A stretch of 64,000 nucleotides of DNA from an uncultured Planctomycetales bacterium (GCA_964489065.1 CAZAXH010000008.1:130-64129), one strand, 5' to 3'; shown: positions 22,428 to 38,133, counted from the stretch's first letter. Made by a program: numbers and translations. Notes: generated by a model from the sequence alone, not told the origin.

Positions 22428-24314
22428 TTAAGATTGGGCAGGGACCAGGAACGATTCAGGGCAGGTTTCCAGAAAACGGAATAATCGTTCCTTTTGGACG
22501 CGCAATTCCTCTTCAATGGCTGAAGCCTGCGCCCACCACTCCCGGAACTTTTCGGTTTTAACCAGATTCAGGTAATATTCGATCCCCTCGCACAGGTTGG
22601 CCTTGATTTCTTCAAGGTTTACGTCTTCGGCCTGAAGGTGAAAGAGCAGGGTTTTCTGGACGGTTTTAATGAAATATTTAATGTAGATTTCCGATTCCTG
22701 GACAAACATGTGCGGCCGGTTTGTGGCGGTTTCAAAGGCCTGGCGTCCGTAAATACGGTCCAGCATTTCGCGGAGAGAAAGAATCTTTGAATAATATTTC
22801 AGATTTGGCCCCGGGCAGACGGCCGGGCTTAAATTTGAGGACGACGGGACACCATGTTTTTTGAGCGCGCCGGCACCAAGATCGTGACAGATACAGGCTT
22901 TGTCTGTTATGGCTTCATATTGCCGTTGATATTCTTCCGGGGAGAGGTTCCTGGCCTTTAACTGGTCGATTTTCAGCTTCTGGTAAGCCCGCGACGCCGT
23001 GCAGATTGGCCTCTCCGTGAATTCCGTATTGTTCGCTAGGTGGCCCAGAGGGCAGGGGCTGCCGGGCCGGCCTTCTGCGGCGCGTTGTTTTTTCTTCTGC
23101 TCGGACGGGCTGGTCAAAAGGTTGTTAAAAGGGACCCCCAAGGGGGAAACGTCGCTTAGGTCGAGTTCTTTTTCTCCCGCCGCCTGCATGAGCCGCAGGG
23201 TTTCTTCATCAACCGCCGTCGTTTCCGGGCATAATAGGAAAGGCGTGCCCCATCCGGTGGCGTCGAGTTCATAGTAATCTTTTAAAAACTGGTCTTCGGC
23301 GTGCGTGCCGATTCCGCCCTGGGCGGTGATGGAGACAGGCAGGGGGTTGGAAAAGGCGACGCGGTTTTTGATTTTTAAGGCTTCCGAATAAATTTTATGG
23401 AGATTATTAATAAGCTCCTGCTTGCGGTTTTTAAATTCTTCCAGAATCGGCCCCAGCATCTGCCCGGACCCGACAAAGGCGTGCCCGCCGCAGTTTAACC
23501 CGGATTCAAAGCGGTATTCGGAAACCCACAGGCCCTTTTTAGCAAGGAACTTTCCTTGAATCAAAGAGGAACGGTAATCACTGACTTTTAAGATGATTTT
23601 TTTCTTGATGTACCCGGTCTTGTCCGCGTAAAAATCTTTGAACTCGCTAATATAATTATAAAGACGCCGGTTGAATCCGGCGGAAAACACGATAGCCGCG
23701 TGCAGGGTGCTTGCCGCGAAGCCTCTTAACGCGGCCAGAGCGTCTGAATATTCCTGGGGAAGAGGCTCTTTGGTTTTAGGGTCATAATTCGGCCTGTCCA
23801 GCTTGGTCATGATATTGACGTCGATACGGCCGATTTCCATGGAATTCCGCAATTGTTCTTGCAGGTCTTTTTTAAGGGCCGTATCTGTGGTGTGGAGCAT
23901 GGCCAGGTATTTTTCTTTAAGCGGAGAGGACTCCGGCAGCAGTTCGAAATACTTGGTGATTTCTGAGCCGATCTCAAAAGCGGATTGGCGGATCTCCTGA
24001 AACTGCTGTTTGACTATCTTGTCAATAAGGTTCAGGTACGCGGTAATGCGCCTGGCCCGGCAATCTTCGTCATCTTTACCGATGGCCTGGTAGGTTTCCC
24101 CGAATTGCGCGCAGTAGTGTTTGCGCATTTTTTCAATCAGGGTGTCATCAACCAGGGAAATGACCGATGATAGGCCATACTTGGCGGTGCGAAGAGGAGT
24201 GTCGACAGTGAACCCGGTCCCCATGACCGGAATAAATATCTTATGACCGATATAATCCATATCTAAAAATATTAGTACACCTATTATAAGAAAGCAAGCG
24301 ATATATTGAAACAA
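22428..24314 (-). CDS. Large nitronate-monooxygenase (NMO)-like FMN TIM-barrel family protein with an insertion and a Cys-rich segment; function unknown
   Basis: N-terminal IPVMGTGFT...SSVISL and C-terminal ITAQGGIGTHAEDQF...DATGWGTPFLLCPET resemble the NMO motifs (PMAGVS...AGGLG; AAGGI...GADGVQMGTRF). TTG start at the ORF top; an alternative ATG (MDYIGHK) lies about 54 nt downstream. Confidence 0.4.
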   Translation of the reverse strand: MFQYIACFLIIGVLIFLDMDYIGHKIFIPVMGTGFTVDTPLRTAKYGLSSVISLVDDTLIEKMRKHYCAQFGETYQAIGKDDEDCRARRITAYLNLIDKIVKQQFQEIRQSAFEIGSEITKYFELLPESSPLKEKYLAMLHTTDTALKKDLQEQLRNSMEIGRIDVNIMTKLDRPNYDPKTKEPLPQEYSDALAALRGFAASTLHAAIVFSAGFNRRLYNYISEFKDFYADKTGYIKKKIILKVSDYRSSLIQGKFLAKKGLWVSEYRFESGLNCGGHAFVGSGQMLGPILEEFKNRKQELINNLHKIYSEALKIKNRVAFSNPLPVSITAQGGIGTHAEDQFLKDYYELDATGWGTPFLLCPETTAVDEETLRLMQAAGEKELDLSDVSPLGVPFNNLLTSPSEQKKKQRAAEGRPGSPCPLGHLANNTEFTERPICTASRAYQKLKIDQLKARNLSPEEYQRQYEAITDKACICHDLGAGALKKHGVPSSSNLSPAVCPGPNLKYYSKILSLREMLDRIYGRQAFETATNRPHMFVQESEIYIKYFIKTVQKTLLFHLQAEDVNLEEIKANLCEGIEYYLNLVKTEKFREWWAQASAIEEELRVQKERLFRFLETCPESFLVPAQS

Positions 24315-24410
24315 TTCCGTCGTTTCTATTTAAAGTCTTTTCATTTGCGAAATTTAGGTCTATTATAAATAATATTAATTTATGTCCTTTTTCAATAATG
24401 GATTGGCTTC

Positions 24411-26708
24411 ATGTCCCCACCCGCAGAATATATCGCTCATGTTGCCCAAGCGGCCGATGCTTCACAGTGGAAAGTTCATGCTTTACAAGATCACCTGCAG
24501 AGCGTCGCTGCACAAGCGGGGGGATTCGCGGCAAAGTTTGGCAGCAGCGATTGGGCGGCATTGTGCGGTTCGTGGCACGATTTGGGCAAATTCCTCCCGG
24601 GGTGGCAGGCCTATATCCGTCGGCAAACGGGGTATGACGAAGATGCGCATATAGAAAACTATCCCGGCCGGCCTAACCACAGCTCCGCGGGCGCGGCATT
24701 GGCGATGCAGCGTTTTAATAAATCCCCTTTAGCAAGGCTCTTGGCTTATATTATCGCTGGTCACCACGCCGGCTTACCCGACTGGATGCCTGTGCCGGAA
24801 ATAGGCGGCGACCTGCAGACCCGGCTTTTTGATCCGCTTGAAAATATTCTAAAAACTCACGAGATCGAACAAATAGCAAACATACCTGCCGCTCAGGCCT
24901 TTTTCGATATTGACCTTCCTAAATCAATGCCTCTGGGGTGTACTAATCCCGAAGCTGCCCGGCAGAGCATGGAATATGTGCATCTGTGGATTCGTATGCT
25001 GTTTTCTTGTGTTGTTGATGCGGACTTTTTGGATACGGAAAAGTTTTGTACTCTCGAAAATTTCCATAAACGGGGCGGCTATCCCGATCTTAAAGAACTG
25101 GTAGCGCGGTTTGACACATATATGGCCAGGAAGCAAGCCGATGCTCCGGCCACAGACGTTAATAAATCGCGCGCTGATATTCTGCACTGTTGCCGAACGA
25201 AAGCGGGATCTCCGCCGGGCTTCTTTTCGCTTACGGTGCCTACTGGCGGGGGGAAAACTCTTTCGTCGATGGCTTTCGCATTAAATCATGCGATACAACA
25301 CAATAAACAACGCGTCATTATGGCGATTCCTTACACCAGTATCATCGAGCAAACAGCAGCAGTCTATAGGGAGGCCTTCGGGGAGGATACCGTGCTTGAA
25401 CATCACAGCAACCTTGATCCGGATAAAGAGACGCACAAAAGCCGGCTTGCCTCGGAAAACTGGGACGCTCCGGTCGTGGTAACAACCAACGTTCAGCTTT
25501 TTGAATCACTATTTGCCAGCCGTACATCCTCGTGCAGAAAACTTCATAATATAGTAAACAGTGTCATAATTCTCGATGAGGCGCAAATGCTTCCGCCGTC
25601 GTATTTGAGGCCTGTTTTGTCTGCCTTACAGGGGCTTGTGAAACATTTCGGCGCCACGGTTGTTTTTTGCACCGCTACACAGCCGGCCTTGTCTGCCCGG
25701 ATTGGCAGCGGCCTTGCTGTTTTTGACGGTCTGCCACCGGCTGTAGAAATTATGGATGAGCCGAAACATTATTTCACGGCCTTTAAGCGGGTAGATGTCG
25801 CTTTGCCTGCGCTCGGTTCCGTGTCGGATTGGCCTGCGCTCGCTGAAGATTTAAAAAAGCATGACCAGGTGTTGTGCGTGGTCAACACAAGAAACGATTG
25901 CCGTGCTTTGCATAAACTTATGCCCAAGGGCGCGGTTCATCTGTCGGCTAATATGTGCGGCGAAGAGCGCAGTGAAGTTATTGGCGAGGTCAAAAAGAAA
26001 CTGGAGCAGGGCCAACCGGTACGGGTCATAAGCACCCAGCTGGTGGAAGCCGGGGTCGATATGGATTTCCCTGTTGTTTACCGGGCACTGGCAGGTATTG
26101 ATTCCATTGTCCAGGCGGCCGGACGCTGCAACCGTGAAGGCCGTTTGAATCAAAAGGGGCGTTTGGGCAAAGTGGTGGTTTTTGTCCCGCCCAGGCCCGC
26201 GCCGCCTGGACTGCTGCGTAAGGGCGAAGATACTGCAAAAAGCATCTTGCAGGGCAAAACAGCCCTTGAGATGACCCCGGCACTTTTTAATGAGTATTTT
26301 AAGATTTTTTACAATGCCGTGAATGATTTTGACAATCCAGGGTTTCAGCCCCGCTTAGTTAGCGGCGCCGGTGAATGCGCGTTTCAATTTCGCTCGTTCG
26401 CCCGGGATTTCCGGCTGATTGACGATACTGCCCAACGCGGAATCATCGTCTGGTATAAAGGCAAATCCCGTGACAGTCTGGAATTGATAGCCATGCTACG
26501 CCGCAAAGGCCCTGAACCGTGGCTTATGCGCAAATTCCAACGCTTCATTGTCAACGTCCCGTTGCCGGTTTTCAATAAATTGGCAGAAGGTGATTATCTG
26601 GAAGATGTCCACGGTTACTGGGTACAAAAAGCCACAGGGCTTTATAAAAGTGGTTTAGGCCTGTTGCCCGATGCAGGAGAGTGGGATAGAGAAACATGGG
26701 TTTGTTAG
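24411..26708 (+). CDS. cas3: CRISPR-associated helicase/nuclease Cas3 (HD nuclease domain plus SF2 helicase), type I-C
   Basis: HD motif region (WHDLGKF ... HHAGLPD), Walker A (VPTGGGKT), DEAD-like (VIILDEAQ), helicase C motifs; first gene of the cas operon. Confidence 0.9.
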   Translation: MSPPAEYIAHVAQAADASQWKVHALQDHLQSVAAQAGGFAAKFGSSDWAALCGSWHDLGKFLPGWQAYIRRQTGYDEDAHIENYPGRPNHSSAGAALAMQRFNKSPLARLLAYIIAGHHAGLPDWMPVPEIGGDLQTRLFDPLENILKTHEIEQIANIPAAQAFFDIDLPKSMPLGCTNPEAARQSMEYVHLWIRMLFSCVVDADFLDTEKFCTLENFHKRGGYPDLKELVARFDTYMARKQADAPATDVNKSRADILHCCRTKAGSPPGFFSLTVPTGGGKTLSSMAFALNHAIQHNKQRVIMAIPYTSIIEQTAAVYREAFGEDTVLEHHSNLDPDKETHKSRLASENWDAPVVVTTNVQLFESLFASRTSSCRKLHNIVNSVIILDEAQMLPPSYLRPVLSALQGLVKHFGATVVFCTATQPALSARIGSGLAVFDGLPPAVEIMDEPKHYFTAFKRVDVALPALGSVSDWPALAEDLKKHDQVLCVVNTRNDCRALHKLMPKGAVHLSANMCGEERSEVIGEVKKKLEQGQPVRVISTQLVEAGVDMDFPVVYRALAGIDSIVQAAGRCNREGRLNQKGRLGKVVVFVPPRPAPPGLLRKGEDTAKSILQGKTALEMTPALFNEYFKIFYNAVNDFDNPGFQPRLVSGAGECAFQFRSFARDFRLIDDTAQRGIIVWYKGKSRDSLELIAMLRRKGPEPWLMRKFQRFIVNVPLPVFNKLAEGDYLEDVHGYWVQKATGLYKSGLGLLPDAGEWDRETWVC

Positions 26709-26731
26709 TTTTTATTTGAGAGGAGGTCTTT

Positions 26732-27457
26732 ATGACACAATTCTTTAATAAACCCTTCTGCCTCGAAGTCTGGGGTGATTACGCGTGTTTCACCCGTCCG
26801 GAGATGAAGGTGGAGCGGGTGAGTTATGACGTGATCACACCGTCGGCGGTGCGGGCGATATTCGAGGCGATTTTCTGGAAACCGGCAATTAAATGGAAGC
26901 CGACCAAGGTTGAAATCCTTAATCCCATCAAATGGATTTCCGTGCGGCGCAATGAGGTTGGCGCAGTGATAAGCCCGCGTTCAGACGGGTTGTTCATTGA
27001 GGAACATCGCCAGCAGCGCGCCGGGCTTTTCCTGCGTGATGTGAAGTATCGCATTCACGCGGAGCTTGAATACATTCCTATAAGTAAAAGAAGTAAAGTT
27101 CTTAATTCGGTTCCTGAATATCTGGTTGATACTGAAGAACTAGCGGAATTTGCCCGCGACCCTAAAGACGAGAACCCCGGCAAATACAACGCGATATTCA
27201 CCCGCCGTGCGAAAAAAGGGCAATGTTTCAACCGTCCCTATTTCGGATGCAGGGAGTTCTCCTGCATGTTTCGTTTTGTCGAGGACGTGGACAAAGAAGA
27301 ATTGAAGCCGATAACTGCGACTCGCGACCTTGGGTTTATGTTATATGACCTGGACTTTACTGATCTCAATGATCCGAAGCCTGCGTTCTTTAGAGCCGAA
27401 ATCAAGAATGGAATCCTTGCCATTCCTGACTGGATGAGTGAGGAGGTGCGGCGATGA
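26732..27457 (+). CDS. cas5c: Cas5c (Cas5d) pre-crRNA endoribonuclease, type I-C
   Basis: N-terminus FCLEVWGDYACFTRPEMKVERVSYDVITPSAVRAIFEAIFWKP is characteristic of Cas5d; position after cas3. Confidence 0.88.
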   Translation: MTQFFNKPFCLEVWGDYACFTRPEMKVERVSYDVITPSAVRAIFEAIFWKPAIKWKPTKVEILNPIKWISVRRNEVGAVISPRSDGLFIEEHRQQRAGLFLRDVKYRIHAELEYIPISKRSKVLNSVPEYLVDTEELAEFARDPKDENPGKYNAIFTRRAKKGQCFNRPYFGCREFSCMFRFVEDVDKEELKPITATRDLGFMLYDLDFTDLNDPKPAFFRAEIKNGILAIPDWMSEEVRR

Positions 27458-29235
27458 TCCTGCAATCGTTATACGAGTATTATCAGAGAAACAAAGGAAG
27501 ATTACCGCCCAAGGGTTTTCAGATTCAGGATATAAAATTTGTCATTGAAATAGACGAGGATGGACGGTTTTTAAATCTGGTTGATAAACGTGAAGGCAAA
27601 AAGGGAAAGCCGTATCTGTTGCCAAAGGCAAAGACCAGATCTGGTTCCAACTCTTACCAGACGACGTTTCTTTTATGGGATCATCACGGTTATCTGTTGG
27701 CTCATCCCAAGGAAGAATCTCCCAAGGCTGTCGAGATGGCTCAGAAACAGAAGACTACTTTTATCGCAGCTCTAGGAAGTCTCCCCGATACACTAAAGAC
27801 CGATAAAGGTGTCGCGGCTGTATTAAAGTTTTATGAGAAAGATGAATGGAAGAAAGTCAAAGAGCAGCCAGCTTGGCCTGACTGTGCCCGGCTGGCAGGT
27901 TGTAATATGACGTTTCAATTGGCAGGCGATGATTGTCTTGTTCCTGAACGGGCAGCTGTCAGGTTTTATCAGTCTTCAATCTCCGATGAAGACAGCCCTG
28001 AAGATGCAGAGGATAAGGGTAAAAGCATGTCTGGGATATGTTTGATAACCGGCAAAAAGGACTTTGTAAAGAGACTTCACTCGCCGACCCCTGTCTTGGG
28101 TTCCCGGCCGAACGCTAAGATACCCGGTTTTCAGAAGAATTCAGGATTTGATTCCTATGGTAAGGAGCAGGCATTCAATGCCCCTGTTTCTTCGGACGCG
28201 GAGGCCGCGTATACTACGGCGCTTAAATATCTAATCTCGTCGGAAAGTAATAAAGTCATAATCAGCGATACAACGATCGTCTTCTGGGCTCAGAAGACGC
28301 TTGAGGCGTTTGACCTTGAATCGAATTTTGTCTGGTTTTTCAAATCGGACAAGGATGACACTGAGAGAGGTGTTAACGCAGTCAAGGCCCTGTTTAATGC
28401 TGTTGAGAGCGGGCGTCTGCCGGTGGACGAGGATAACAGGTTTTTTGTCCTGGGACTCGCGCCGAACGCGGCGCGTATTTCTGTCAGATTCTGGAAGGCA
28501 GGGACGATTAAAGAATTTGCTGAAAAAATATATCAGCATTTTATTGATTTTGAAATTACGCGTCCTGTTCAGGATAAATACGAATATTTATCGCTGTACC
28601 AAATCCTCGGCGCGACAGTGTTGGATTACAAAATGGACAATGTCCCGCCGAATCTTGCCGGAGCGGTTGTCAGCAGTATTCTGGATGGTACGCCGTATCC
28701 GCGCACACTCTTGCATCAATGCATGCGTCGCATTCGTGCGGAACAGTCAAAGAAAGATTCGCGCACTGGTAAGTCGATTCAGAATGTCAATCGAATACGA
28801 GCATCAATTCTTAAAGCTTGTCTTAATCGGTTTAATCGAATTCATAACCCTCAAACCAAGGAGGTTCTCGTGTCTCTAGATAGAACAAACACCGACACAG
28901 GATACCGTGTGGGGCGGCTGTTCGCGGTTTTGGAAAAAATTCAGGAGGAGGCCAATCCCGGTATCAACACAACCATCCGCGACCGATTTTATGGTGCTGC
29001 TTCGTCAACACCAGTTACGGTTTTTCCCAGGCTTTTAGGACTTAAGAATCATCATCTGCCTAAATTGTCGCTGGGTCGCAAGGTGAATATGGAAAGAGAG
29101 ATTCAGGATATTATCGGTGAGATTAAAAGTTTCCCATCGCATCTGACCCTTGACCAGCAGGCCATGTTCGCGATTGGTTATTACCATCAGCGGCAGGCCT
29201 TTTTTGTGTCTAAAAAGGATTTGAATAACGAATAA
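27454..29235 (+). CDS. cas8c: Cas8c (Csd1) large subunit, type I-C
   Basis: 593 aa between cas5c and cas7c with overlapping start; family-typical size and position. Confidence 0.85.
   Translation: MILQSLYEYYQRNKGRLPPKGFQIQDIKFVIEIDEDGRFLNLVDKREGKKGKPYLLPKAKTRSGSNSYQTTFLLWDHHGYLLAHPKEESPKAVEMAQKQKTTFIAALGSLPDTLKTDKGVAAVLKFYEKDEWKKVKEQPAWPDCARLAGCNMTFQLAGDDCLVPERAAVRFYQSSISDEDSPEDAEDKGKSMSGICLITGKKDFVKRLHSPTPVLGSRPNAKIPGFQKNSGFDSYGKEQAFNAPVSSDAEAAYTTALKYLISSESNKVIISDTTIVFWAQKTLEAFDLESNFVWFFKSDKDDTERGVNAVKALFNAVESGRLPVDEDNRFFVLGLAPNAARISVRFWKAGTIKEFAEKIYQHFIDFEITRPVQDKYEYLSLYQILGATVLDYKMDNVPPNLAGAVVSSILDGTPYPRTLLHQCMRRIRAEQSKKDSRTGKSIQNVNRIRASILKACLNRFNRIHNPQTKEVLVSLDRTNTDTGYRVGRLFAVLEKIQEEANPGINTTIRDRFYGAASSTPVTVFPRLLGLKNHHLPKLSLGRKVNMEREIQDIIGEIKSFPSHLTLDQQAMFAIGYYHQRQAFFVSKKDLNNE
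28870..29235 (+). CDS. cas11c: Putative internally translated Cas11c small subunit (in-frame within the cas8c 3' end)
   Basis: In-frame GTG at 28870 preceded by a perfect RBS AAGGAGG (28858-28864, 5-nt spacer); predicted product 121 aa, the expected size of Cas11c produced by internal initiation in I-C cas8c genes. Confidence 0.45.
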   Translation: MSLDRTNTDTGYRVGRLFAVLEKIQEEANPGINTTIRDRFYGAASSTPVTVFPRLLGLKNHHLPKLSLGRKVNMEREIQDIIGEIKSFPSHLTLDQQAMFAIGYYHQRQAFFVSKKDLNNE

Positions 29236-29267
29236 TAACTTTATCATTCAGGGAGGAGATAGGTACC

Positions 29268-30185
29268 ATGACAACACCACTCACAAACCGTTACGACTTT
29301 GTTTTGTTTTTTGACGTACAGGACGGAAACCCCAACGGCGACCCCGATGCCGGTAACCTGCCGCGCATTGACGCGGAGACCGGCATGGGGTTGGTAACGG
29401 ATGTCTGCATTAAGCGAAAGGTGCGGAATTATGTGCAGATAGTCAAAGAAGGAAATGTCCCCTTTGATATTTTTGTGAAATCCAAAGAATTTTCCGGTCT
29501 AGAAACCGTTTTAAATAAGTTGATTCGAGATGGGTATCAAGAGATAGGCATTGATTTGGAGGCTGACAAGACAAAAGACGGAGAAAAAAGAAAAAGTAAA
29601 GGTGGAGCTCAAGGGGAAGAGGTCAACGAAGGCCGTCGGCACATGTGTTCGAAGTTTTTTGATATTCGTACTTTTGGAGCTGTTATGAGCACTGGTCCTA
29701 ACGCTGGACAAGTACGAGGGCCTGTTCAAATAACCTTTGCGAGATCTATTGAGCCTTTAGTTAGTTTGGAGCATGCGTTAACTGTTTGCGCTGCAAGGTC
29801 GGAAGATAAGAGCTACGAAGAGCAAGTTGGAATACAAGGTCGAAAATACACCGTTCCTTATGGCCTTTATCGCGTTCATGGTTTTGTGTCTGCTCATCTG
29901 GCAGCCCAGACAGGGTTTTCCAAGGAAGATTTAAATTTGTTCTGGGAGGCTTTGCAGAAAATGTTTGATCACGATCATTCCGCGGCCCGCGGCCTTATGA
30001 CAACACGGGCGCTTATAGTTTTTGAACATGGTACTGCTTTGGGCACAGCGAGTGCGGCATCTCTCTTTGACCGGGTGGAAGCCAAACGTGTTACTGAAGG
30101 CCCGGCCAGGAAGTTTAGCGATTACCAAATTTTGCTGGATAACCAGCCTGTCGTTGAATTACCAAAAATTGTCCGGGTGGGATAA
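29268..30185 (+). CDS. cas7c: Cas7c (Csd2) backbone subunit, type I-C
   Basis: N-terminus RYDFVLFFDVQDGNPNGDPDAGNLPRID is the Csd2/Cas7 signature. Confidence 0.9.
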   Translation: MTTPLTNRYDFVLFFDVQDGNPNGDPDAGNLPRIDAETGMGLVTDVCIKRKVRNYVQIVKEGNVPFDIFVKSKEFSGLETVLNKLIRDGYQEIGIDLEADKTKDGEKRKSKGGAQGEEVNEGRRHMCSKFFDIRTFGAVMSTGPNAGQVRGPVQITFARSIEPLVSLEHALTVCAARSEDKSYEEQVGIQGRKYTVPYGLYRVHGFVSAHLAAQTGFSKEDLNLFWEALQKMFDHDHSAARGLMTTRALIVFEHGTALGTASAASLFDRVEAKRVTEGPARKFSDYQILLDNQPVVELPKIVRVG

Positions 30186-30189
30186 TTTT

Positions 30190-30822
30190 ATGTTCTCCGA
30201 AGACAATCTTATTCAGCTTTCGGCTTTACAGCATTTTGTGTATTGCCCCCGGCAGTGCGCGCTGATCCACATCGAGCAGGTGTGGGTGGAAAATATGTTC
30301 ACGGCCGAAGGCAGGATCATGCATGATAAAGTGCATGAAGAGAGAGTGGAATACCGGGAAGGCGTCAAAATAGAGCGCGGCATGTTTCTTCGCTCGTTGG
30401 AGCTGGGCCTCATTGGTAAAGCAGATGTGGTGGAGTTTCATAGCGCTGCCGGCGGGGCTTGGCTTCCTTTTCCGGTAGAGTATAAAAGGGGAAAGCCCAA
30501 AAAAGACTCTTGCGACATGGTCCAGTTGTGCGCCCAGGCTTTCTGCCTGGAAGAGATGCTTAACGTAAAAATAGGAAAAGGCGCCTTGTATTATGGCCGC
30601 ACGCGGCATCGGCATGAAGTTGTTTTCGATGACGATTTGAGGGCCGTTACCCGTAACGCCGCATCCCAGGTGCGGGCGTTTCTTGAAAAGGGAGAAACGC
30701 CGTTCCCGGAATACTCGCCCAAGTGCAAGGCCTGCTCTATGCTTGCGGTATGCTTGCCGAAAGTCATGGGCCGGCATCAGTCTGTAACCTGTTACCTGGA
30801 GGAGCAACTGAAAGACCCGTGA
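30190..30822 (+). CDS. cas4: Cas4 RecB-like exonuclease with C-terminal Fe-S cysteines
   Basis: LQHFVYCPRQCALIHIE nuclease start, and a C-terminal Cx2C cluster (KCKACSMLAVC); follows cas7c by a 4-bp gap. Confidence 0.88.
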   Translation: MFSEDNLIQLSALQHFVYCPRQCALIHIEQVWVENMFTAEGRIMHDKVHEERVEYREGVKIERGMFLRSLELGLIGKADVVEFHSAAGGAWLPFPVEYKRGKPKKDSCDMVQLCAQAFCLEEMLNVKIGKGALYYGRTRHRHEVVFDDDLRAVTRNAASQVRAFLEKGETPFPEYSPKCKACSMLAVCLPKVMGRHQSVTCYLEEQLKDP

Positions 30823-31850
30823 AGAAATATTTAAATACTTTATATGTCACCACTCAAGGGGCCTATCTGTCGAAAGAGGGTGAAACGGTGGTTGTGAAGG
30901 TGGAAGAAGAAAAGCGCCTGCAAATCCCTGTCCATACCCTCGACGGAATCGTGTGTTTCGGGCAGGTGGGAATGAGCCCGTTTTTGATGGGGCATTGCGC
31001 CGAGAACAACGTGGCCGTTACTTTTTTAACCGAGTATGGCCGGTTTTTGGCAAGCCTGCGAGGGAAGGTTTGCGGTAATGTGCTGCTTCGGCGCCAGCAG
31101 TACCGCAAAGCGGACGATCCTGCCTTTTCGGCAGAGGTCGCGCGCAGCATTGTCCGGGGCAAGATCGCTAATGCCCGGGCTGTATTGCAGCGAAGATTGA
31201 GGGACCATCCCGAGAAAAATAATACTCCCGATGTCAAACAGGCCTCGGGGCGGTTGAGTTGTTCTCTGGATAAACTGACCCGGCCGCTTGACCTAGATAT
31301 GATCCGGGGCATAGAAGGCGAATGCGCGCACACGTATTTCAGTGTTTTTAATGATCTGATCGTCGCGCAAAAAAATGACTTTATTTTTGAGGAGCGTAAC
31401 CGCCGGCCGCCGCTGGACCGGGTGAATTGTCTTTTGTCTTTTATTTATACTTTGGTTATGCATGATGTGCGTTCCGCGCTCGAAACTGTAGGGCTTGATC
31501 CTGCCGTCGGGTTTTTGCATCGCGACCGGCCCGGCCGGCCTGGGTTGGCTTTGGATATGTTGGAAGAATTCCGGCCGTTTATGGCGGACAGGTTGGTCTT
31601 GTCTTTGATTAACCGGGAACAGGTGCAGGCCAAGGGCTTCATGCAGTCGGAATCGCGTGCCGTCACAATGGATGATGAGACCCGAAAAAGCATTCTTGTG
31701 GCCTATCAGAAAAGGAAGCAGGAAGAAATAACGCATCCCTATTTGCAGGAAACCGTGCCGGTAGGGCTTTTGTTTTATATCCAGGCATTGCTCATGGCAC
31801 GTTTTCTCCGGGAAGACATAGACGGCTATCCTGTATTTATCTGGAAATAA
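30819..31850 (+). CDS. cas1: Cas1 integrase
   Basis: GTG start overlapping cas4 stop; LNTLYVTTQGAYLSKEGETVVVK N-terminus and conserved Cas1 core. Confidence 0.9.
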   Translation: MKKYLNTLYVTTQGAYLSKEGETVVVKVEEEKRLQIPVHTLDGIVCFGQVGMSPFLMGHCAENNVAVTFLTEYGRFLASLRGKVCGNVLLRRQQYRKADDPAFSAEVARSIVRGKIANARAVLQRRLRDHPEKNNTPDVKQASGRLSCSLDKLTRPLDLDMIRGIEGECAHTYFSVFNDLIVAQKNDFIFEERNRRPPLDRVNCLLSFIYTLVMHDVRSALETVGLDPAVGFLHRDRPGRPGLALDMLEEFRPFMADRLVLSLINREQVQAKGFMQSESRAVTMDDETRKSILVAYQKRKQEEITHPYLQETVPVGLLFYIQALLMARFLREDIDGYPVFIWK

Positions 31851-31861
31851 GAAGGTGTCCC

Positions 31862-32152
31862 ATGCTGGTGTTGATCAGTTATGATGTAAAAATGGACGAC
31901 AGCGGTGGACCCCGGCGGTTACGCCGGGTGGCAAAGGCCTGCAAAAATTTTGGCCAGCGGGTGCAGTATTCTGTCTTTGAATGTAACGTAGATCCGGCCC
32001 AATGGGCCAAACTGCGCCAGCAACTGATTGATGAAATCGATTTGAAAAAAGACAGCCTCCGGTTTTATTTTTTAGGCTCCAACTGGAGACGGCGGGTTGA
32101 GCACATGGGGGCCAAGGAACCTGTTGACCTGGAAGGGCCGCTTGTCGCGTAG
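31862..32152 (+). CDS. cas2: Cas2
   Basis: MLVLISYDV...RVQYSVFEC classic Cas2; 96 aa. Confidence 0.92.
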   Translation: MLVLISYDVKMDDSGGPRRLRRVAKACKNFGQRVQYSVFECNVDPAQWAKLRQQLIDEIDLKKDSLRFYFLGSNWRRRVEHMGAKEPVDLEGPLVA

Positions 32153-32339
32153 TAATCTGCCGTGCGAACCATGAGAGCGTGTGCTGTATGCGGGACGTTC
32201 GCAGGGGAGACATGTTCTTTGACAACAATAATTTATTTCAATCCGATATATAATTTGTTTGTTTGATCGCAGCAAATCCGCCAAGGTTCGCGGAAATAGA
32301 AGTTTTAGTTATTGGTGTTGTAACAGATAGAAGAAGACA
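32153..32339 (+). promoter_or_regulatory. CRISPR leader (AT-rich) between cas2 and the first repeat
   Basis: AT-rich 187 bp (ttgacaacaataatttatttcaatccgatatataatttg...) immediately upstream of repeat 1; the degenerate repeat is at the distal end of the array. Confidence 0.7.
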
Positions 32340-33763
32340 GTCGCGCCCTTCGCGGGCGCGTGGATTGAAACTTTGCCGTTCAGAATAAAAAACGAGGTCG
32401 GGAAAGGTCGCGCCCTTCGCGGGCGCGTGGATTGAAACACGGGCAATCTGGAGATTTTGTGCATTTGTTTGGTCGCGCCCTTCGCGGGCGCGTGGATTGA
32501 AACAGGGGTAGCGCGCGCGGATGGTAAAGATGGTAAAGGTCGCGCCCTTCGCGGGCGCGTGGATTGAAACCTTGGAGGACGCTTGTCCATTATAACTGAT
32601 ACTGGTCGCGCCCTTCGCGGGCGCGTGGATTGAAACTTGTCCGCTCGGATGTGCGGATTTTGCGCAAGCTGTCGCGCCCTTCGCGGGCGCGTGGATTGAA
32701 ACTATCTATAAAAAGGAGGTAAAAAATGGGTCATATGTCGCGCCCTTCGCGGGCGCGTGGATTGAAACCTAATATCGCAACACTTTCGCCGGCGGAAAAA
32801 CTGTCGCGCCCTTCGCGGGCGCGTGGATTGAAACTTAAAAAAAGAGGTGAGGCCGATGAAGAAATAAGTCGCGCCCTTCGCGGGCGCGTGGATTGAAACA
32901 ACTTCATGGTCGTCGTCGATGTTGAGCGGAGACTGTCGCGCCCTTCGCGGGCGCGTGGATTGAAACTGGCGAACAACCTTATGGTTGTTCTGGTGGAGGC
33001 GTCGCGCCCTTCGCGGGCGCGTGGATTGAAACCAGCGCCGAGCGTGTTGCTCCGACCTGACGATGTCGCGCCCTTCGCGGGCGCGTGGATTGAAACACAG
33101 CGCGATCGCAGGCATGGGATAATTCATCGTGTCGCGCCCTTCGCGGGCGCGTGGATTGAAACGGCGAGTATGAAATACTCGTCAAAGCAGAAATCAAAGT
33201 CGCGCCCTTCGCGGGCGCGTGGATTGAAACGTAACAGACTTCGGTTTGCTATTGTTGGTTAGAGGGTCGCGCCCTTCGCGGGCGCGTGGATTGAAACTCA
33301 TCAGGAGTATCGCGCGCGGATGGTAAAGATGGTCGCGCCCTTCGCGGGCGCGTGGATTGAAACCGTCGCCCGGCGATTGTGTATCTCCTCACGCACGGTC
33401 GCGCCCTTCGCGGGCGCGTGGATTGAAACGACGCCGACACAAAAACTAAAAAATTAAACATTAAGTCGCGCCCTTCGCGGGCGCGTGGATTGAAACTTTA
33501 ATGCGTTTCAATTCTTTGTGCAGCCCCATGTCGCGCCCTTCGCGGGCGCGTGGATTGAAACCTGCACATGATTAAGAGCCAAAGCAACGCCCTGAGCGTC
33601 GCGCCCTTCGCGGGCGCGTGGATTGAAACTATCAAGGGTGTGTACTAGCTTGTCCTGGTGTGTCAGTCGCGCCCTTCGCGGGCGCGTGGATTGAAACGTC
33701 TATGGCTGGTAGGCTAGGCTGCCTAGGTACTGTCGCGCCCTTCGCGGGCGCGTGGTGATAACA
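32340..33763 (+). CRISPR. Type I-C CRISPR array: 22 repeats (21 intact plus 1 degenerate terminal), 21 spacers of 32-36 bp
   Basis: Repeat GTCGCGCCCTTCGCGGGCGCGTGGATTGAAAC (32 bp) with ~66-67 bp period. First repeat at 32340; terminal repeat at 33732 is degenerate (…GCGTGGTGATAACA). Confidence 0.97.
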
Positions 33764-33792
33764 AAGAGTTGGAGAATGAAATCAGCATGTTT

Positions 33793-33830
33793 AAAAAAAT
33801 AAGCCCAAACAGTTTTCAAGCTGTTTGGGC
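33793..33830 (-). terminator. Hairpin with perfect 10-bp stem (GCCCAAACAG/CTGTTTGGGC) just distal to the CRISPR array, with a T-tract on the minus-strand side
   Basis: aaaaaaataaGCCCAAACAGttttcaagCTGTTTGGGC; on the minus strand this reads as stem-loop followed by TTATTTTTTT. Confidence 0.45.
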
Positions 33831-34244
33831 AGAAAACGGGAAGGGAACCGCCAGTCTCCCTATCAGACCAGTTGGGGTTGAATCTTCCAAAGGTCAGGTG
33901 GCAGTGGGCGGGCTTTCTGCTCGTTCCTCGTCTCCTAAAAAATATACGGCAGTCCGCTACTCCTGTCAAGAGCAAGATTCCCCTGATATTCAATGAAGCG
34001 CTTTTCAATTTATTGACAGGATACAATGCTTGTTATATATCTATTAATGGCTTTTGGAGCGGAGGTCCTTTGTCAGCCACATAACTTCCAGAGGCCTTCG
34101 CCGGGTTGGACAAAACAGCCCGGTTAATTTTTTTTTATCGAATAAATCTTTATATTCGCGCCCTTGTCTTGAGGCCGCGGGGTTTTATTTGCTTTCAAAA
34201 GTTATTTATATTAGAATACACCCACGTTTTGACAAGGAGGAGGT

Positions 34245-37088: not shown

Positions 37089-37270
37089 CCCGCGGTTCAG
37101 CCATATATGAATTCCCTTGCGACGAAAAAATTCTTGGTTTATAGTAAATTAATTTGAGGCGATTTTTTAAGAATGGGGGGATTTGTAAAATACTCGGCCG
37201 ATACAAAAACCGTTTTTAGTGGGCGCTTCCCGGAAAATTGTCATAAGACTTTAATAAGGCAGAAAAAGGC

Positions 37271-38056
37271 ATGGCGAAATATCAATTGATCAAGACTCGG
37301 GGCGTTCCGGTCTTCCCCGATGGGTGTCCTATCTGCGGCTCGTCGGATGACTTGAACCGGATTGAAATGGAACACGAAGCGCGGTTCCTGGCTTCGCACA
37401 CTGTTCAGACCGTGACGATGGACGTTGATTTTTATAACGTGGCGAAGATCGGCTGGACATACAAATTCTGCAATCCGTGCGTTAAATTGTGGAACGAGTC
37501 ACGATCACCGAAGCTCACGCGTGCCCAAAATTCTTTATTGCTGGTACTTGCCCTGGTTGGGATTTTTCTCTCGGGCTTCGCCAGTTACCAGGTAGCCCGG
37601 GCTGACAACGTAAAAACGGCTGACCTTATCGCGACTGGCCAGTTTGACCAGACATCCCCATGGGATAGATGGGCACTCGATAGCCCTAAAGGGTTCGTGA
37701 TTACTGTCGTCATTTTCTCGATATTTTTTATCTTTTTTGGGGTTCTTCCTTTTTGTTTCGGCGTGTCGGAAGTTCTGACAAGGATTCAGAAGAAGCGTTT
37801 TTTCGACAGTCATCCGGGCTTACGGGAGTTGTTTAAGCGGAATGGCTCGCCCATCCCGGGGCATCCTGACTGCGGGGTGCGATTTGACGGCATCGAGAAA
37901 TACCTTGTCAATCTTCCCCCGGTATGCGATCAGCGGACATCGGCCATGTTATTGGCCACGGCGGCCAGCCAGGGACAATTTGTTGTGTTGTGGCAGATTC
38001 AAAATCCCCAATATGCCGAAGCTTTTAAACAGCTGAACAGCGCGATTCTGGTATGA
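37271..38056 (+). CDS. Hypothetical membrane protein with N-terminal zinc-ribbon-like Cys pairs
   Basis: CPICG ... CNPC followed by two hydrophobic segments; no recognisable family. Confidence 0.5.
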   Translation: MAKYQLIKTRGVPVFPDGCPICGSSDDLNRIEMEHEARFLASHTVQTVTMDVDFYNVAKIGWTYKFCNPCVKLWNESRSPKLTRAQNSLLLVLALVGIFLSGFASYQVARADNVKTADLIATGQFDQTSPWDRWALDSPKGFVITVVIFSIFFIFFGVLPFCFGVSEVLTRIQKKRFFDSHPGLRELFKRNGSPIPGHPDCGVRFDGIEKYLVNLPPVCDQRTSAMLLATAASQGQFVVLWQIQNPQYAEAFKQLNSAILV

Positions 38057-38133
38057 GCGGGATGGATCTCGGGGTATTATGAGGGTTAAATAACTTTACG
38101 GACCACAAAGATTTACTGAAGGGGTCATGCTCC

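What the first reader, a model, noticed from the sequence alone, without database searches (positions are those of the whole stretch)
24411..33763. Complete canonical type I-C CRISPR-Cas locus with a 22-repeat array
The gene order cas3-cas5c-cas8c-cas7c-cas4-cas1-cas2 is present, with translationally coupled or overlapping junctions. It is followed by an AT-rich leader and 22 copies of the classic I-C repeat GTCGCGCCCTTCGCGGGCGCGTGGATTGAAAC. The degenerate repeat sits at the leader-distal end, which fixes array polarity. cas4, cas1 and cas2 are intact and there are 21 spacers, so the system looks adaptation-competent. It is the dominant accessory system in the window. Spacer 7 (tatctataaaaaggaggtaaaaaatgggtcatat) looks like a phage gene start with an RBS.
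Basis: partly seen in the sequence, partly recalled or inferred. Interest (0 to 1): 0.55.

Follow-up and report, generated by a model that had tools for sequence, protein, structure and literature searches.

The report
Canonical type I-C CRISPR-Cas, mosaic Cascade genes
This is an ordinary, intact type I-C CRISPR-Cas immune locus in an uncultured Omnitrophota bacterium, and its only unusual feature is that its target-recognition genes were swapped by recombination relative to sister strains that keep the same spacer-acquisition genes and repeat.

Summary
The genes cas3-cas5c-cas8c-cas7c-cas4-cas1-cas2 lie at 24411-32152 on the + strand. A 187-nt AT-rich leader follows, then 22 repeats (32340-33763) and 21 spacers.

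All seven proteins score best on type I-C-specific profiles. All pass a curated NCBIfam cut-off, four on I-C-specific models and three on general Cas3, Cas4 and Cas2 models. The repeat matches those beside Cas8c homologues elsewhere, and its hairpin covaries.

Two corrections apply. The "RBS-like" spacer is spacer 6, not 7. An eighth product, Cas11c, is probably translated from inside cas8c (AAGGAGG, then GTG at 28870).

No target or PAM was found for any window spacer.

The host is a Candidatus Omnitrophota genome assembled from a metagenome. Sister strains carry the locus at the same chromosomal site with an identical Cas2, a near-identical Cas4 and Cas1, and the same repeat. They carry three different interference modules.

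In the window, the Cas8c N-terminal (PAM-reading) domain and the central part of Cas7 come from another I-C lineage. Synonymous sites there are saturated while dN/dS is about 0.1, which points to recombination rather than rapid in-place evolution.

Verdict: a new member of a known kind, of low-to-moderate interest.

The parts
24338..24373 (+). Promoter-like sites just upstream of cas3
   Evidence: Two overlapping sigma-70-like matches, 9 of 12 positions each. This proximal region is conserved in all three strain variants. Function is not shown.
24411..26708 (+). cas3 (765 aa), fused HD nuclease and SF2 helicase
   Evidence: The cas3_HD and cas3_core models pass their cut-offs. PADLOC Cas3c scores 708 bits. 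It matches I-C Cas3 structures 8zns_A and 8g9u_P at E = 1e-160 and 3e-154, with the HD, PTGGGKT and DEAQ motifs present.
26732..27457 (+). cas5c (241 aa), predicted pre-crRNA endonuclease and Cascade subunit
   Evidence: TIGR01876 scores 237 bits against a cut-off of 85. It matches 8g9t_N 'pre-crRNA processing endonuclease' at E = 5e-62.
27454..29235 (+). cas8c/csd1 (593 aa), large subunit; its N-terminal ~280 aa is of a different I-C lineage from that of sister strains
   Evidence: TIGR01863 scores 510 bits against a cut-off of 219. It matches 8g9u_H at E = 3e-121. The segment identities show a chimera.
28857..28863 (+). Internal Shine-Dalgarno sequence AAGGAGG inside cas8c
   Evidence: It is followed by TTCTC and then GTG at 28870. 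The same sequence is present in variant B.
28870..29235 (+). cas11c (121 aa), small subunit predicted to be translated in frame from within cas8c
   Evidence: Separately deposited Cas11 chains align from query residues 473-475 (7kha_K, 9jhb_B, 8g9s_H). Internal translation has been shown for D. vulgaris I-C (10.1101/2020.04.18.045682). Translation is not shown here.
29268..30185 (+). cas7c/csd2 (305 aa), crRNA backbone subunit; its central part (residues ~51-200) is of a different lineage from that of sister strains
   Evidence: TIGR02589 scores 350 bits against a cut-off of 182.
30190..30822 (+). cas4 (210 aa)
   Evidence: TIGR00372 scores 138 bits against a cut-off of 65. PADLOC Cas4c scores 284 bits. 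It matches the Cas4 chain of PDB 8d3l at E = 8e-48, with four Cys and the E-x-K motif present.
30819..31850 (+). cas1c (343 aa); GTG start overlapping the cas4 stop (GTGA)
   Evidence: TIGR03640 scores 521 bits against a cut-off of 385. The start was read and the length matches the 343-aa genes called in sister loci.
31862..32152 (+). cas2 (96 aa)
   Evidence: TIGR01573 scores 68 bits against a cut-off of 24.5. PADLOC Cas2c scores 142 bits. An identical protein was read on 23 contigs.
32153..32339 (+). Leader, AT-rich
   Evidence: GC is 41%, and 33% in the proximal 124 nt, against 51% for the window. It is 91-97% identical to the leader of variant B. No confident promoter was called.
32340..33763 (+). 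CRISPR array: 22 repeats of 32 nt and 21 spacers of 32-36 nt
   Evidence: The repeat folds into a 7-bp hairpin (bases 3-9 with 15-21, -14.6 kcal/mol). That hairpin is 98% paired, with 3 of its 7 pairs showing compensatory changes, across 22 distinct related repeats.
33732..33763 (+). Degenerate terminal repeat (GTCGCGCCCTTCGCGGGCGCGTGGTGATAACA)
   Evidence: It has 6 mismatches, all in the final 8 bases.
26450..30100 (+). Recombinant, high-divergence block relative to sister strains of variant B (cas3 3' end, cas5c, cas8c, cas7c); the boundaries are approximate
   Evidence: Nucleotide identity falls from 91-97% to 22-75%. The proportion of synonymous differences (pS) is 0.67-1.0 here against 0.13-0.25 in the flanks and cas4-cas2, while dN/dS is about 0.1.

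Best explanation
This is a chromosomal, intact and probably active type I-C (Dvulg) CRISPR-Cas system of a Candidatus Omnitrophota bacterium.

**Mechanism inferred by homology**
1. The array is transcribed from the leader.
2. Cas5c cuts each repeat at the 3' base of its 7-bp hairpin. This leaves crRNAs with an 11-nt 5' handle (UGGAUUGAAAC) and a 3' hairpin.
3. Each crRNA assembles with Cas5c, about seven Cas7c, one Cas8c and two Cas11c into Cascade. Cas11c is made from an internal start in cas8c.
4. The Cas8c N-terminal domain reads a PAM, expected to be 5'-TTC, on double-stranded DNA. An R-loop forms and Cas3 is recruited to degrade the target.
5. Cas1-Cas2, with Cas4 selecting the PAM, insert new spacers at the leader end.

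**What is shown and what is inferred**
- Shown: gene content, intact motifs, the repeat family and its hairpin covariation, purifying selection, and spacer gain at the leader end in a sister strain.
- Inferred: expression, crRNA processing, the PAM, and interference.

**Added finding**
The interference genes are a recombination mosaic. Relative to sister strains, the window carries a foreign Cas8c N-terminal domain and a foreign central part of Cas7c. Its cas4-cas1-cas2, leader and repeat are unchanged.
For: **Subtype.** The curated I-C-specific models pass their cut-offs, and the best PADLOC model for every protein is the I-C one.

**Solved I-C homologues.**
- Cas5: 8g9t, E = 5e-62.
- Cas8: 8g9u, E = 3e-121, plus 8dej and 7kha.
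- Cas3: 8zns, E = 1e-160, and 8g9u, E = 3e-154.
- Cas4: 8d3l, E = 8e-48.

**Cas11c.** AAGGAGG followed by GTG falls at the residue where the solved Cas11 chains begin.

**Repeats.** 21 copies are perfect and none is expected by chance. The hairpin covaries. D. vulgaris pDV, an annotated I-C locus, has the same gene order and a repeat differing from the window's at 5 positions.

**Selection.** dN/dS between the window and sister strains is 0.06-0.13 across the six cas genes for which it could be computed.

**Chromosomal site.** The locus sits between thiC plus a hypothetical gene on one side and a radical-SAM gene on the other in every strain whose contig reaches both sides. Where only one flank is on the contig, it is the same one.

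**Activity.** Sister strain L046 has one extra spacer at the leader end, and L045 and L048 show internal spacer losses.

**Mosaic.**
Against: - There is no expression or processing data.
- No protospacer was found for any of the 21 window spacers in INPHARED phages or PLSDB plasmids. Eight spacers were also tried as exact patterns in IMG/VR (7 scans) and two of them in JGI metagenomes (2 scans), again with nothing. Neither the PAM nor the targets are therefore known.
- The only PAM hints are not TTC. Spacer 15 gives ATC upstream of the spacer-3 protospacer. Distant microvirus matches of sister-strain spacers give TGC, TCA and ATC.
- No confident promoter was found in the leader.
- The catalytic residues of Cas5c and Cas1 were not checked individually.
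Confidence: 0.9

Rival explanations
1. The locus is a recently inactivated relic. The genes look intact but the system no longer acquires spacers or interferes.
For: No target was found for any window spacer. The array is short, 21 spacers against 53-56 in variant-B strains. The window lacks about 135 bp of the cas3 upstream region that is present in the other two variants.
Against: All ORFs are full length with their motifs intact. dN/dS is about 0.1. All 21 repeats are identical. The proximal promoter-like region is conserved. Unmatched spacers are the norm for uncultured lineages (established knowledge).
Confidence: 0.07
2. The locus is carried by, or recently arrived on, a mobile element rather than being a stable chromosomal system.
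For: GC across the cas genes is 46-49% against 51-57% in the adjacent flanks. The interference genes show repeated horizontal replacement. I-C loci do occur on plasmids, for example D. vulgaris pDV.
Against: The insertion site, between thiC plus a hypothetical gene and radical-SAM/menaquinone genes, is the same in every strain lineage, with flanks 91-97% identical. The immediate flanking genes searched against Pfam showed no integrase, transposase or relaxase.
Confidence: 0.03
3. The high divergence of cas5c-cas8c-cas7c between strains reflects rapid in-place positive selection rather than recombination.
For: [quoted passage not shown] Published work places the PAM-recognition surface and the AcrIC4 and AcrIF2 binding sites on the Cas8c N-terminus, its hinge and the interface between Cas8c and the adjacent Cas7 (10.1101/2022.06.15.496202).
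Against: Synonymous sites are saturated in exactly these blocks (pS 0.67-1.0 against 0.13-0.25 in the flanks), and dN/dS is about 0.1. Over Cas8c residues 1-280 the window is closer to a Chlorobi genome (58%) than to its sister strain (38%), while the sister strain is 76% identical to another Omnitrophota genome. Cas7 residues 51-200 show the same pattern.
Confidence: 0.05

Closest known systems
Desulfovibrio (Nitratidesulfovibrio) vulgaris Hildenborough type I-C system on plasmid pDV (the 'Dvulg' subtype; Cascade structures 7KHA, 8DEJ)
   Same: The gene order is identical: cas3-cas5c-cas8c-cas7c-cas4-cas1c-cas2, followed by the array. The repeat is 32 nt and differs from the window's at 5 positions, with the same 3' GCGTGGATTGAAAC. 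Cas11c lies within cas8c at the equivalent position.
   Different: Cas8c is only about 39% identical overall. The window locus is chromosomal in Omnitrophota rather than on a megaplasmid. The loop aligned to the PAM-contacting N72 is longer and lacks that Asn at the aligned position.
Neisseria lactamica type I-C Cascade-Cas3 (PDB 8G9S-8GAN)
   Same: These are the best-scoring solved homologues of Cas5c (E = 5e-62) and Cas8c (E = 3e-121), and the second best of Cas3 (E = 3e-154). A separate Cas11 chain aligns to Cas8c residues 475-586.
   Different: The sequences are diverged. The Cas11c start is GTG here, where the Neisseria protein has a Met a few residues upstream in the alignment.
Cas4-Cas1-Cas2 adaptation complex of PDB 8D3L (from my own knowledge, a type I-C complex of Alkalihalobacillus halodurans)
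   Same: Cas4 is stand-alone and aligns end to end at E = 8e-48, with the Cys cluster and nuclease motif retained. Cas1 passes the I-C-specific model.
   Different: PAM selection was not tested here, and the weak PAM hints are not TTC.
Modular evolution ('module shuffling') of CRISPR-Cas adaptation and effector modules (Koonin and Makarova 2019, PMC6452270)
   Same: A conserved adaptation module, leader and repeat are combined with different effector modules.
   Different: Here the exchange is seen within one subtype, at one chromosomal site, among strains whose flanks are 91-97% identical (variants A and B). Breakpoints fall inside cas3, cas8c and cas7c, and one variant retains a 119-codon remnant of the replaced cas3.

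Membership tests
Type I-C (Dvulg) CRISPR-Cas | Signature large subunit Cas8c/Csd1 | tested here: met
   TIGR01863 equivalog scores 510 bits against a cut-off of 218.65, covering 586 of 588 model positions. All four PADLOC hits are Cas8c models.
Type I-C (Dvulg) CRISPR-Cas | Cas5c (Cas5d) present and no Cas6 in the operon | tested here: met
   TIGR01876 scores 237 bits against a cut-off of 85. The seven contiguous genes leave no room for another ORF (gaps of 32 nt or less), and none of them matches Cas6. The rest of the window was not scanned for cas6.
Type I-C (Dvulg) CRISPR-Cas | Cas7c/Csd2 backbone subunit | tested here: met
   TIGR02589 scores 350 bits against a cut-off of 182. The I-B Cas7 model scores 103, below its cut-off of 172.
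Type I-C (Dvulg) CRISPR-Cas | Single-chain Cas3 (HD plus helicase) at the head of the operon | tested here: met
   Both Cas3 domain models pass their cut-offs. PADLOC Cas3c scores 708 bits against 358 for the best Cas3b model. It matches the I-C Cas3 structure 8g9u_P at E = 3e-154.
Type I-C (Dvulg) CRISPR-Cas | Adaptation module cas4-cas1c-cas2 with an I-C-type Cas1 | tested here: met
   TIGR03640 cas1_DVULG scores 521 bits against a cut-off of 385. Cas4 and Cas2 pass their own cut-offs. The best PADLOC models are Cas4c, Cas1c and Cas2c.
Type I-C (Dvulg) CRISPR-Cas | Gene order cas3-cas5-cas8c-cas7-cas4-cas1-cas2-array on one strand | tested here: met
   The order is the same as in the annotated D. 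vulgaris pDV locus.
Type I-C (Dvulg) CRISPR-Cas | Repeat of about 32 nt with a GC-rich hairpin and a conserved 3' ...GTGGATTGAAAC | tested here: met
   Arrays beside Cas8c homologues in 26 other loci (25 metagenome-assembled genomes and D. vulgaris pDV) have repeats 1-10 substitutions from the window's. In the 22 distinct repeats aligned, 7 of the last 11 positions are invariant and 2 more nearly so. The hairpin is 98% paired, 3 of its 7 pairs show compensatory changes, and 0 of 500 shuffles reached the covariation score.
Type I-C (Dvulg) CRISPR-Cas | Small subunit Cas11c produced by internal translation within cas8c | tested here: inconclusive
   The sequence prerequisites are present: AAGGAGG, five bases, then GTG at residue 473, where the solved Cas11 chains begin. 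Translation itself cannot be tested with these tools.
Type I-C (Dvulg) CRISPR-Cas | 5'-TTC PAM | tested here: inconclusive
   No protospacer was found for the window spacers. Indirect hints give ATC, TGC and TCA, drawn from an overlapping spacer pair and from diverged microvirus matches.
Type I-C (Dvulg) CRISPR-Cas | Cas5c-dependent pre-crRNA cleavage giving an 11-nt 5' handle | not testable with these tools
   The hairpin ends at repeat base 21, leaving 11 nt, which is consistent with the feature. Cleavage needs RNA-seq or biochemistry.

The most novel reading that the evidence does not exclude
In this Omnitrophota population a single CRISPR memory system (identical Cas2, near-identical Cas4 and Cas1, the same leader and repeat) is served by interchangeable interference modules. 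Recombination has replaced the Cascade surfaces that published work identifies as the PAM reader and anti-CRISPR targets, namely the Cas8c N-terminal domain and parts of Cas7 (variant A against B). In variant C it has replaced the whole cas3-cas7 block. The reading is that this is a natural way to escape anti-CRISPRs, or to change PAM tolerance, without losing stored spacers.
Probability: 0.25. Interest if true: 0.5.

Novelty: new member of a known kind. Interest (0 to 1): 0.3.

Why it matters
As a CRISPR-Cas locus it adds nothing new in kind. It is a textbook type I-C system and should be annotated as such, with cas11c added.

Its modest value lies elsewhere. It is a well-resolved natural example of effector genes being exchanged behind a fixed adaptation module, with breakpoints inside genes, in a poorly known phylum of uncultured bacteria. 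The three alleles offer a ready-made comparison for testing whether swaps of Cas8c and Cas7 surfaces change PAM use or anti-CRISPR sensitivity.

Sister-strain spacers matching Microviridae capsid and pilot-protein genes also suggest a virus-host link for Omnitrophota.

Tried and rejected
**Spacer targets**
- The whole window array was compared with INPHARED phages and PLSDB plasmids. Only repeat-to-repeat matches to other arrays came back.
- Seven exact-pattern scans of IMG/VR found nothing. They used the shared core of spacers 3 and 15, and spacers 6, 1, 13, 9, 19 and 4.
- Two JGI metagenome scans were run. The shared core of spacers 3 and 15 found nothing.
- The 22-nt core of spacer 6 found 14 contigs. 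All are starts of genes beginning MGQKVNPHGLRVG (which I read as rpsC), with 8-10 mismatches over the full spacer, so they were rejected as chance matches to a generic RBS and start codon.
- No spacer matches the window elsewhere with 6 or fewer mismatches. None of the 118 distinct spacers matches any of the 52 loci fetched by then, apart from one chance 16-nt hit.

**PAM**
- Microvirus matches of sister-strain spacers gave TGC, TCA and ATC. The matches are too diverged to decide.
- The overlapping spacer pairs give only one hint, ATC.

**Other checks**
- Rfam found nothing at gathering thresholds in the window. In the array trailer it found only sub-threshold hits driven by the terminator.
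- The 628-aa gene divergent from cas3 has no Pfam or PADLOC hit. It is absent from 41 other I-C loci and from pDV, so it was treated as a core-genome flank rather than part of the system.
- No confident sigma-70 match was found for a leader promoter.
- The aligned residue at D. vulgaris Q212 is not Q in any of the three variants. Alignment in that variable region is unreliable, so this was not used.
- The thiC row was computed in the wrong reading frame and is ignored.

Full report
**1. Observation**

The ORF list shows a co-directional gene run on the + strand from 24411 to 32152.

Reading the junctions fixes two starts. cas4 begins at ATG 30190, four bases after the cas7c stop. cas1 begins at GTG 30819 and overlaps the cas4 stop as GTGA. 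These give 210 and 343 aa, the lengths called for the same genes in sister contigs.

Junctions:

| Junction | Gap or overlap |
|---|---|
| cas3 / cas5c | 23-nt gap |
| cas5c / cas8c | 4-nt overlap |
| cas8c / cas7c | 32-nt gap |
| cas7c / cas4 | 4-nt gap |
| cas4 / cas1 | 4-nt overlap |
| cas1 / cas2 | 11-nt gap |

The array holds 21 perfect copies of GTCGCGCCCTTCGCGGGCGCGTGGATTGAAAC. A last copy at 33732-33763 differs at 6 positions, all in its final 8 bases. Spacers are 32-36 nt. No shuffle of the window produced a single match, and there is no copy on the other strand.

The leader (32153-32339) is 41% GC, and 33% in the 124 nt next to the array, against 51% for the window.

The spacer quoted as number 7 is actually number 6 (32703-32736).

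**2. What it is**

NCBIfam I-C-specific models pass their curated cut-offs:

| Protein | Bits | Cut-off |
|---|---|---|
| Cas5c | 237 | 85 |
| Cas8c/Csd1 | 510 | 219 |
| Cas7/Csd2 | 350 | 182 |
| Cas1c | 521 | 385 |

Cas3 passes both of its domain models, and Cas4 and Cas2 pass theirs. In PADLOC the top model for every protein is the I-C one: Cas3c (708 bits), Cas5c, Cas8c, Cas7c, Cas4c, Cas1c and Cas2c.

Against solved structures:
- Cas5c, Cas8c and Cas3 match the Neisseria lactamica I-C complex (8g9t, 8g9u).
- Cas5c and Cas8c also match the D. vulgaris I-C Cascade (7kha, 8dej).
- Cas4 matches the Cas4 chain of 8d3l.

The alignments show these motifs present:
- in Cas3, the HD motif, PTGGGKT, DEAQ and the motif VI arginine;
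- in Cas4, the N-terminal Cys, the C-terminal CxxCxxxxxC and the E-x-K motif.

**3. The repeat**

The repeat folds into a 7-bp hairpin (bases 3-9 with 15-21, 5-nt loop, -14.6 kcal/mol), leaving 11 unpaired 3' bases.

I fetched 41 loci encoding Cas8c relatives. Twenty-five of them have arrays downstream on the same strand with repeats 1-10 substitutions from this one.

D. vulgaris pDV has the same gene order and a repeat differing at 5 positions.

Across 22 distinct repeats:
- the hairpin is 98% paired;
- 3 of the 7 pairs carry compensatory changes (for example G-C to A-U or C-G at pair 6-18);
- 0 of 500 shuffles reach the covariation score;
- slid controls collapse;
- the 3' TGGATTGAAAC is nearly invariant.

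This fits the I-C mechanism in which Cas5c, rather than Cas6, processes the pre-crRNA (PMC7684278). The 11-nt handle length comes from my own knowledge of the I-C literature.

**4. A hidden eighth product**

Separately deposited Cas11 chains of the I-C structures align to Cas8c from residues 473-475. At that point the DNA reads AAGGAGG-TTCTC-GTG, with the GTG at 28870 (residue V473), giving a 121-aa product.

The same signal is present in sister variant B. Variant C has an AGGAGG before an in-frame ATG 140 codons from the end.

Internal translation of Cas11c from cas8c has been demonstrated for D. vulgaris (10.1101/2020.04.18.045682). The complex there is Cas7(7) Cas8c(1) Cas5c(1) Cas11c(2) crRNA(1) (PMC7684278). 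Translation in this organism is inferred.

**5. Host and context**

Exact-sequence look-ups place the window's proteins on a 138,674-bp NCBI contig. Their 90%-identity clusters are named Candidatus Omnitrophota.

The immediate flanks are ordinary chromosomal genes:
- upstream: a FIST-domain gene, thiC and a 628-aa hypothetical gene;
- downstream: radical-SAM/BATS, a flavin-dependent disulphide oxidoreductase, and UbiE.

The closest Cas8c among the GTDB species representatives is only 61% identical.

**6. Population comparison (the main addition)**

The identical Cas2 protein was read on 23 contigs. Wherever the contig reaches a flank, it is the same one as in the window. The interference genes come in three forms:

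| Variant | Loci | Cas3 / Cas5 / Cas8c / Cas7 (aa) |
|---|---|---|
| A | the window, L001 | 765 / 241 / 593 / 305 |
| B | L043, L044, L045, L047 | 765 / 241 / 569 / 283 |
| C | L049, L050 | 729 / 237 / 637 / 373, preceded by a 119-aa Cas3 fragment |

All three pass the I-C cut-offs.

Amino-acid identity to the window:

| Protein | A vs B (%) | A vs C (%) |
|---|---|---|
| flanking hypothetical gene | 94 | 86 |
| Cas3 | 89.5 | 42 |
| Cas5 | 80 | 44 |
| Cas8c | 66 | 30 |
| Cas7 | 77 | 52 |
| Cas4 | 96 | 91 |
| Cas1 | 98 | 96 |
| Cas2 | 100 | 100 |
| radical-SAM gene | 91 | not available |

*Variant C.* DNA homology to the window stops at 24728, which is cas3 codon 106. It resumes at 30189, one base before the cas4 start. 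The 119-aa remnant is 90.6% identical to the N-terminus of the A and B Cas3. C is therefore a clean replacement of cas3 through cas7c that left a stub of the old cas3.

*Variant A against B.* A sliding-window profile shows:
- 91-97% identity in the flanks, in cas4-cas2 and in the leader;
- about 88-91% across most of cas3, with a drop from about 26450;
- decay through cas5c;
- essentially no alignment across cas8c 27491-28293;
- an island of 92% at 28819-28968, which is the Cas11c start;
- 39-63% in the middle of cas7c;
- recovery by about 30100.

*Synonymous differences.* The proportion of synonymous differences (pS) is 0.13-0.25 in the flanks and the adaptation genes. It is 0.67-1.0, which is saturated, across cas5c, cas8c and cas7c. 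dN/dS is about 0.1 throughout. This rules out rapid in-place evolution and points to recombination with a diverged I-C donor.

*Segment identities.* Cas8c:

| Residues | A vs B (%) | A vs Chlorobi genome L002 (%) | B vs Omnitrophota genome L017 (%) |
|---|---|---|---|
| 1-280 | 38 | 58 | 76 |
| 281-593 | 86 | 67 | 70 |

Cas7 residues 51-200 behave the same way. A is closer to a Holophagaceae genome (64-82%) than to B (55-62%), while the two ends are 93-98% identical between A and B.

*Where the swapped parts lie.* Published structural work on the D. vulgaris complex assigns PAM recognition to the Cas8c N-terminus. It places AcrIF2 at the Cas8c hinge and AcrIC4 between Cas8c and the adjacent Cas7 (10.1101/2022.06.15.496202). 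The loop aligned to PAM-contacting N72 differs between A and B, and A has a 3-residue insertion shared with L002.

Whether this changes PAM use or anti-CRISPR sensitivity is untested. Exchange of adaptation and effector modules is an established theme (PMC6452270). This is a fine-scale instance of it, not a new principle.

**7. Arrays and activity**

The window shares no spacer with the 53-56-spacer arrays of variant B. Its last spacer and degenerate repeat recur only in L051, a contig from the same sample.

Within B, L046 has one extra spacer at the leader end. L045 and L048 have internal losses. This is direct natural evidence that this adaptation module adds spacers at the leader end.

Spacers 3 and 15 of the window overlap the same protospacer, offset by 5 nt with 2 mismatches. 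That means two acquisitions from related targets.

**8. Targets**

No window spacer matched phage or plasmid records. Eight of them, tried as exact patterns, matched nothing in IMG/VR, and the only metagenome hits were chance matches.

The 22-nt core of spacer 6 hit 14 metagenome contigs. All are starts of genes beginning MGQKVNPHGLRVG (which I read as rpsC), with 8-10 mismatches over the 34 nt. The spacer does look like an RBS plus start codon, but its source is unknown.

Variant-B spacers 5, 7 and 8 match Microviridae major-capsid and DNA-pilot genes with 2-5 mismatches. This suggests that microviruses infect this lineage. The matches are too diverged to read a PAM (TGC, TCA, ATC).

**9. Verdict**

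The finding is real and correctly interpreted. It is a canonical type I-C locus, intact and under purifying selection, and so a new member of a known kind.

Corrections: the spacer numbering, and the unannotated cas11c.

The one feature beyond the routine is the recombination mosaic of the interference genes among sister strains. That feature is well supported as recombination, but its functional meaning is speculative.

Noticed in passing
window 33764-34180 (candidate transcript 33936->33795, minus strand; partial repeat 34156-34165): About 400 bp between the degenerate last repeat and the conserved flank is absent from variant-B strains, where a perfect repeat abuts the flank. It holds a near-consensus minus-strand promoter (TTGACA-17-TATATT, 33969->33941), a ~140-nt unit ending in a 10-bp-stem terminator (fold z = -3.3), and no Rfam match. 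A 10-nt repeat fragment, TCGCGCCCTT, at 34156 is the only copy outside the array. This may be a small RNA, or an insertion into the old end of the array.
   Followed up: partly
L044 10479-14156 (sister-strain array), spacers 5, 7 and 8; L053-L056: Sister-strain spacers match Microviridae major-capsid (VP1) and DNA-pilot (VP2) genes with 2-5 mismatches per 34-35 nt. This suggests that microviruses infect this Omnitrophota lineage. No window spacer does the same.
   Followed up: partly
window 24316-24328, against L044 ~2466-2604 and L050 ~1790-1934: Variants B and C carry a GC-rich insert of about 135-145 bp between the hypothetical gene and cas3, which the window lacks. The proximal cas3 upstream region is conserved in all three.
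   Followed up: no
window 37101-38086 (ORF 37271-38056, 261 aa): This is an insertion relative to variant B. It encodes a protein with no Pfam or PADLOC match and sits just upstream of a PIF1-like helicase (38134-39714). That helicase has a weak WYL hit and partial matches to the PADLOC candidate-system models PDC-S68 and PDC-M16A.
   Followed up: no
window 32504-32538 and 33298-33331: Spacers 3 and 15 overlap the same protospacer, offset by 5 nt with 2 mismatches. Spacer 15 implies ATC, not TTC, upstream of the spacer-3 protospacer. One reading frame gives ...RADGKDGK, which resembles a Gly-X-Y repeat (the frame reading is my own inference).
   Followed up: partly
L052 1660-6850: This contig carries the same Cas2 and repeat with 42 different spacers. 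A block of 36 of them is duplicated, probably through an assembly loop. Spacers 27 and 33 overlap the same target on opposite strands with no mismatch.
   Followed up: no
window 22428-24314 (minus strand): This 628-aa gene, divergent from cas3, is conserved in all three variants. It has no Pfam or PADLOC hit and is absent from 41 other I-C loci and from pDV. It looks like a lineage-specific core gene of unknown function.
   Followed up: partly
L049/L050 2023-2382: A 119-codon ORF, 90.6% identical to the first 106 residues of the window's Cas3, survives upstream of the replacement cas3 in variant C. It marks the left breakpoint of the module swap.
   Followed up: yes
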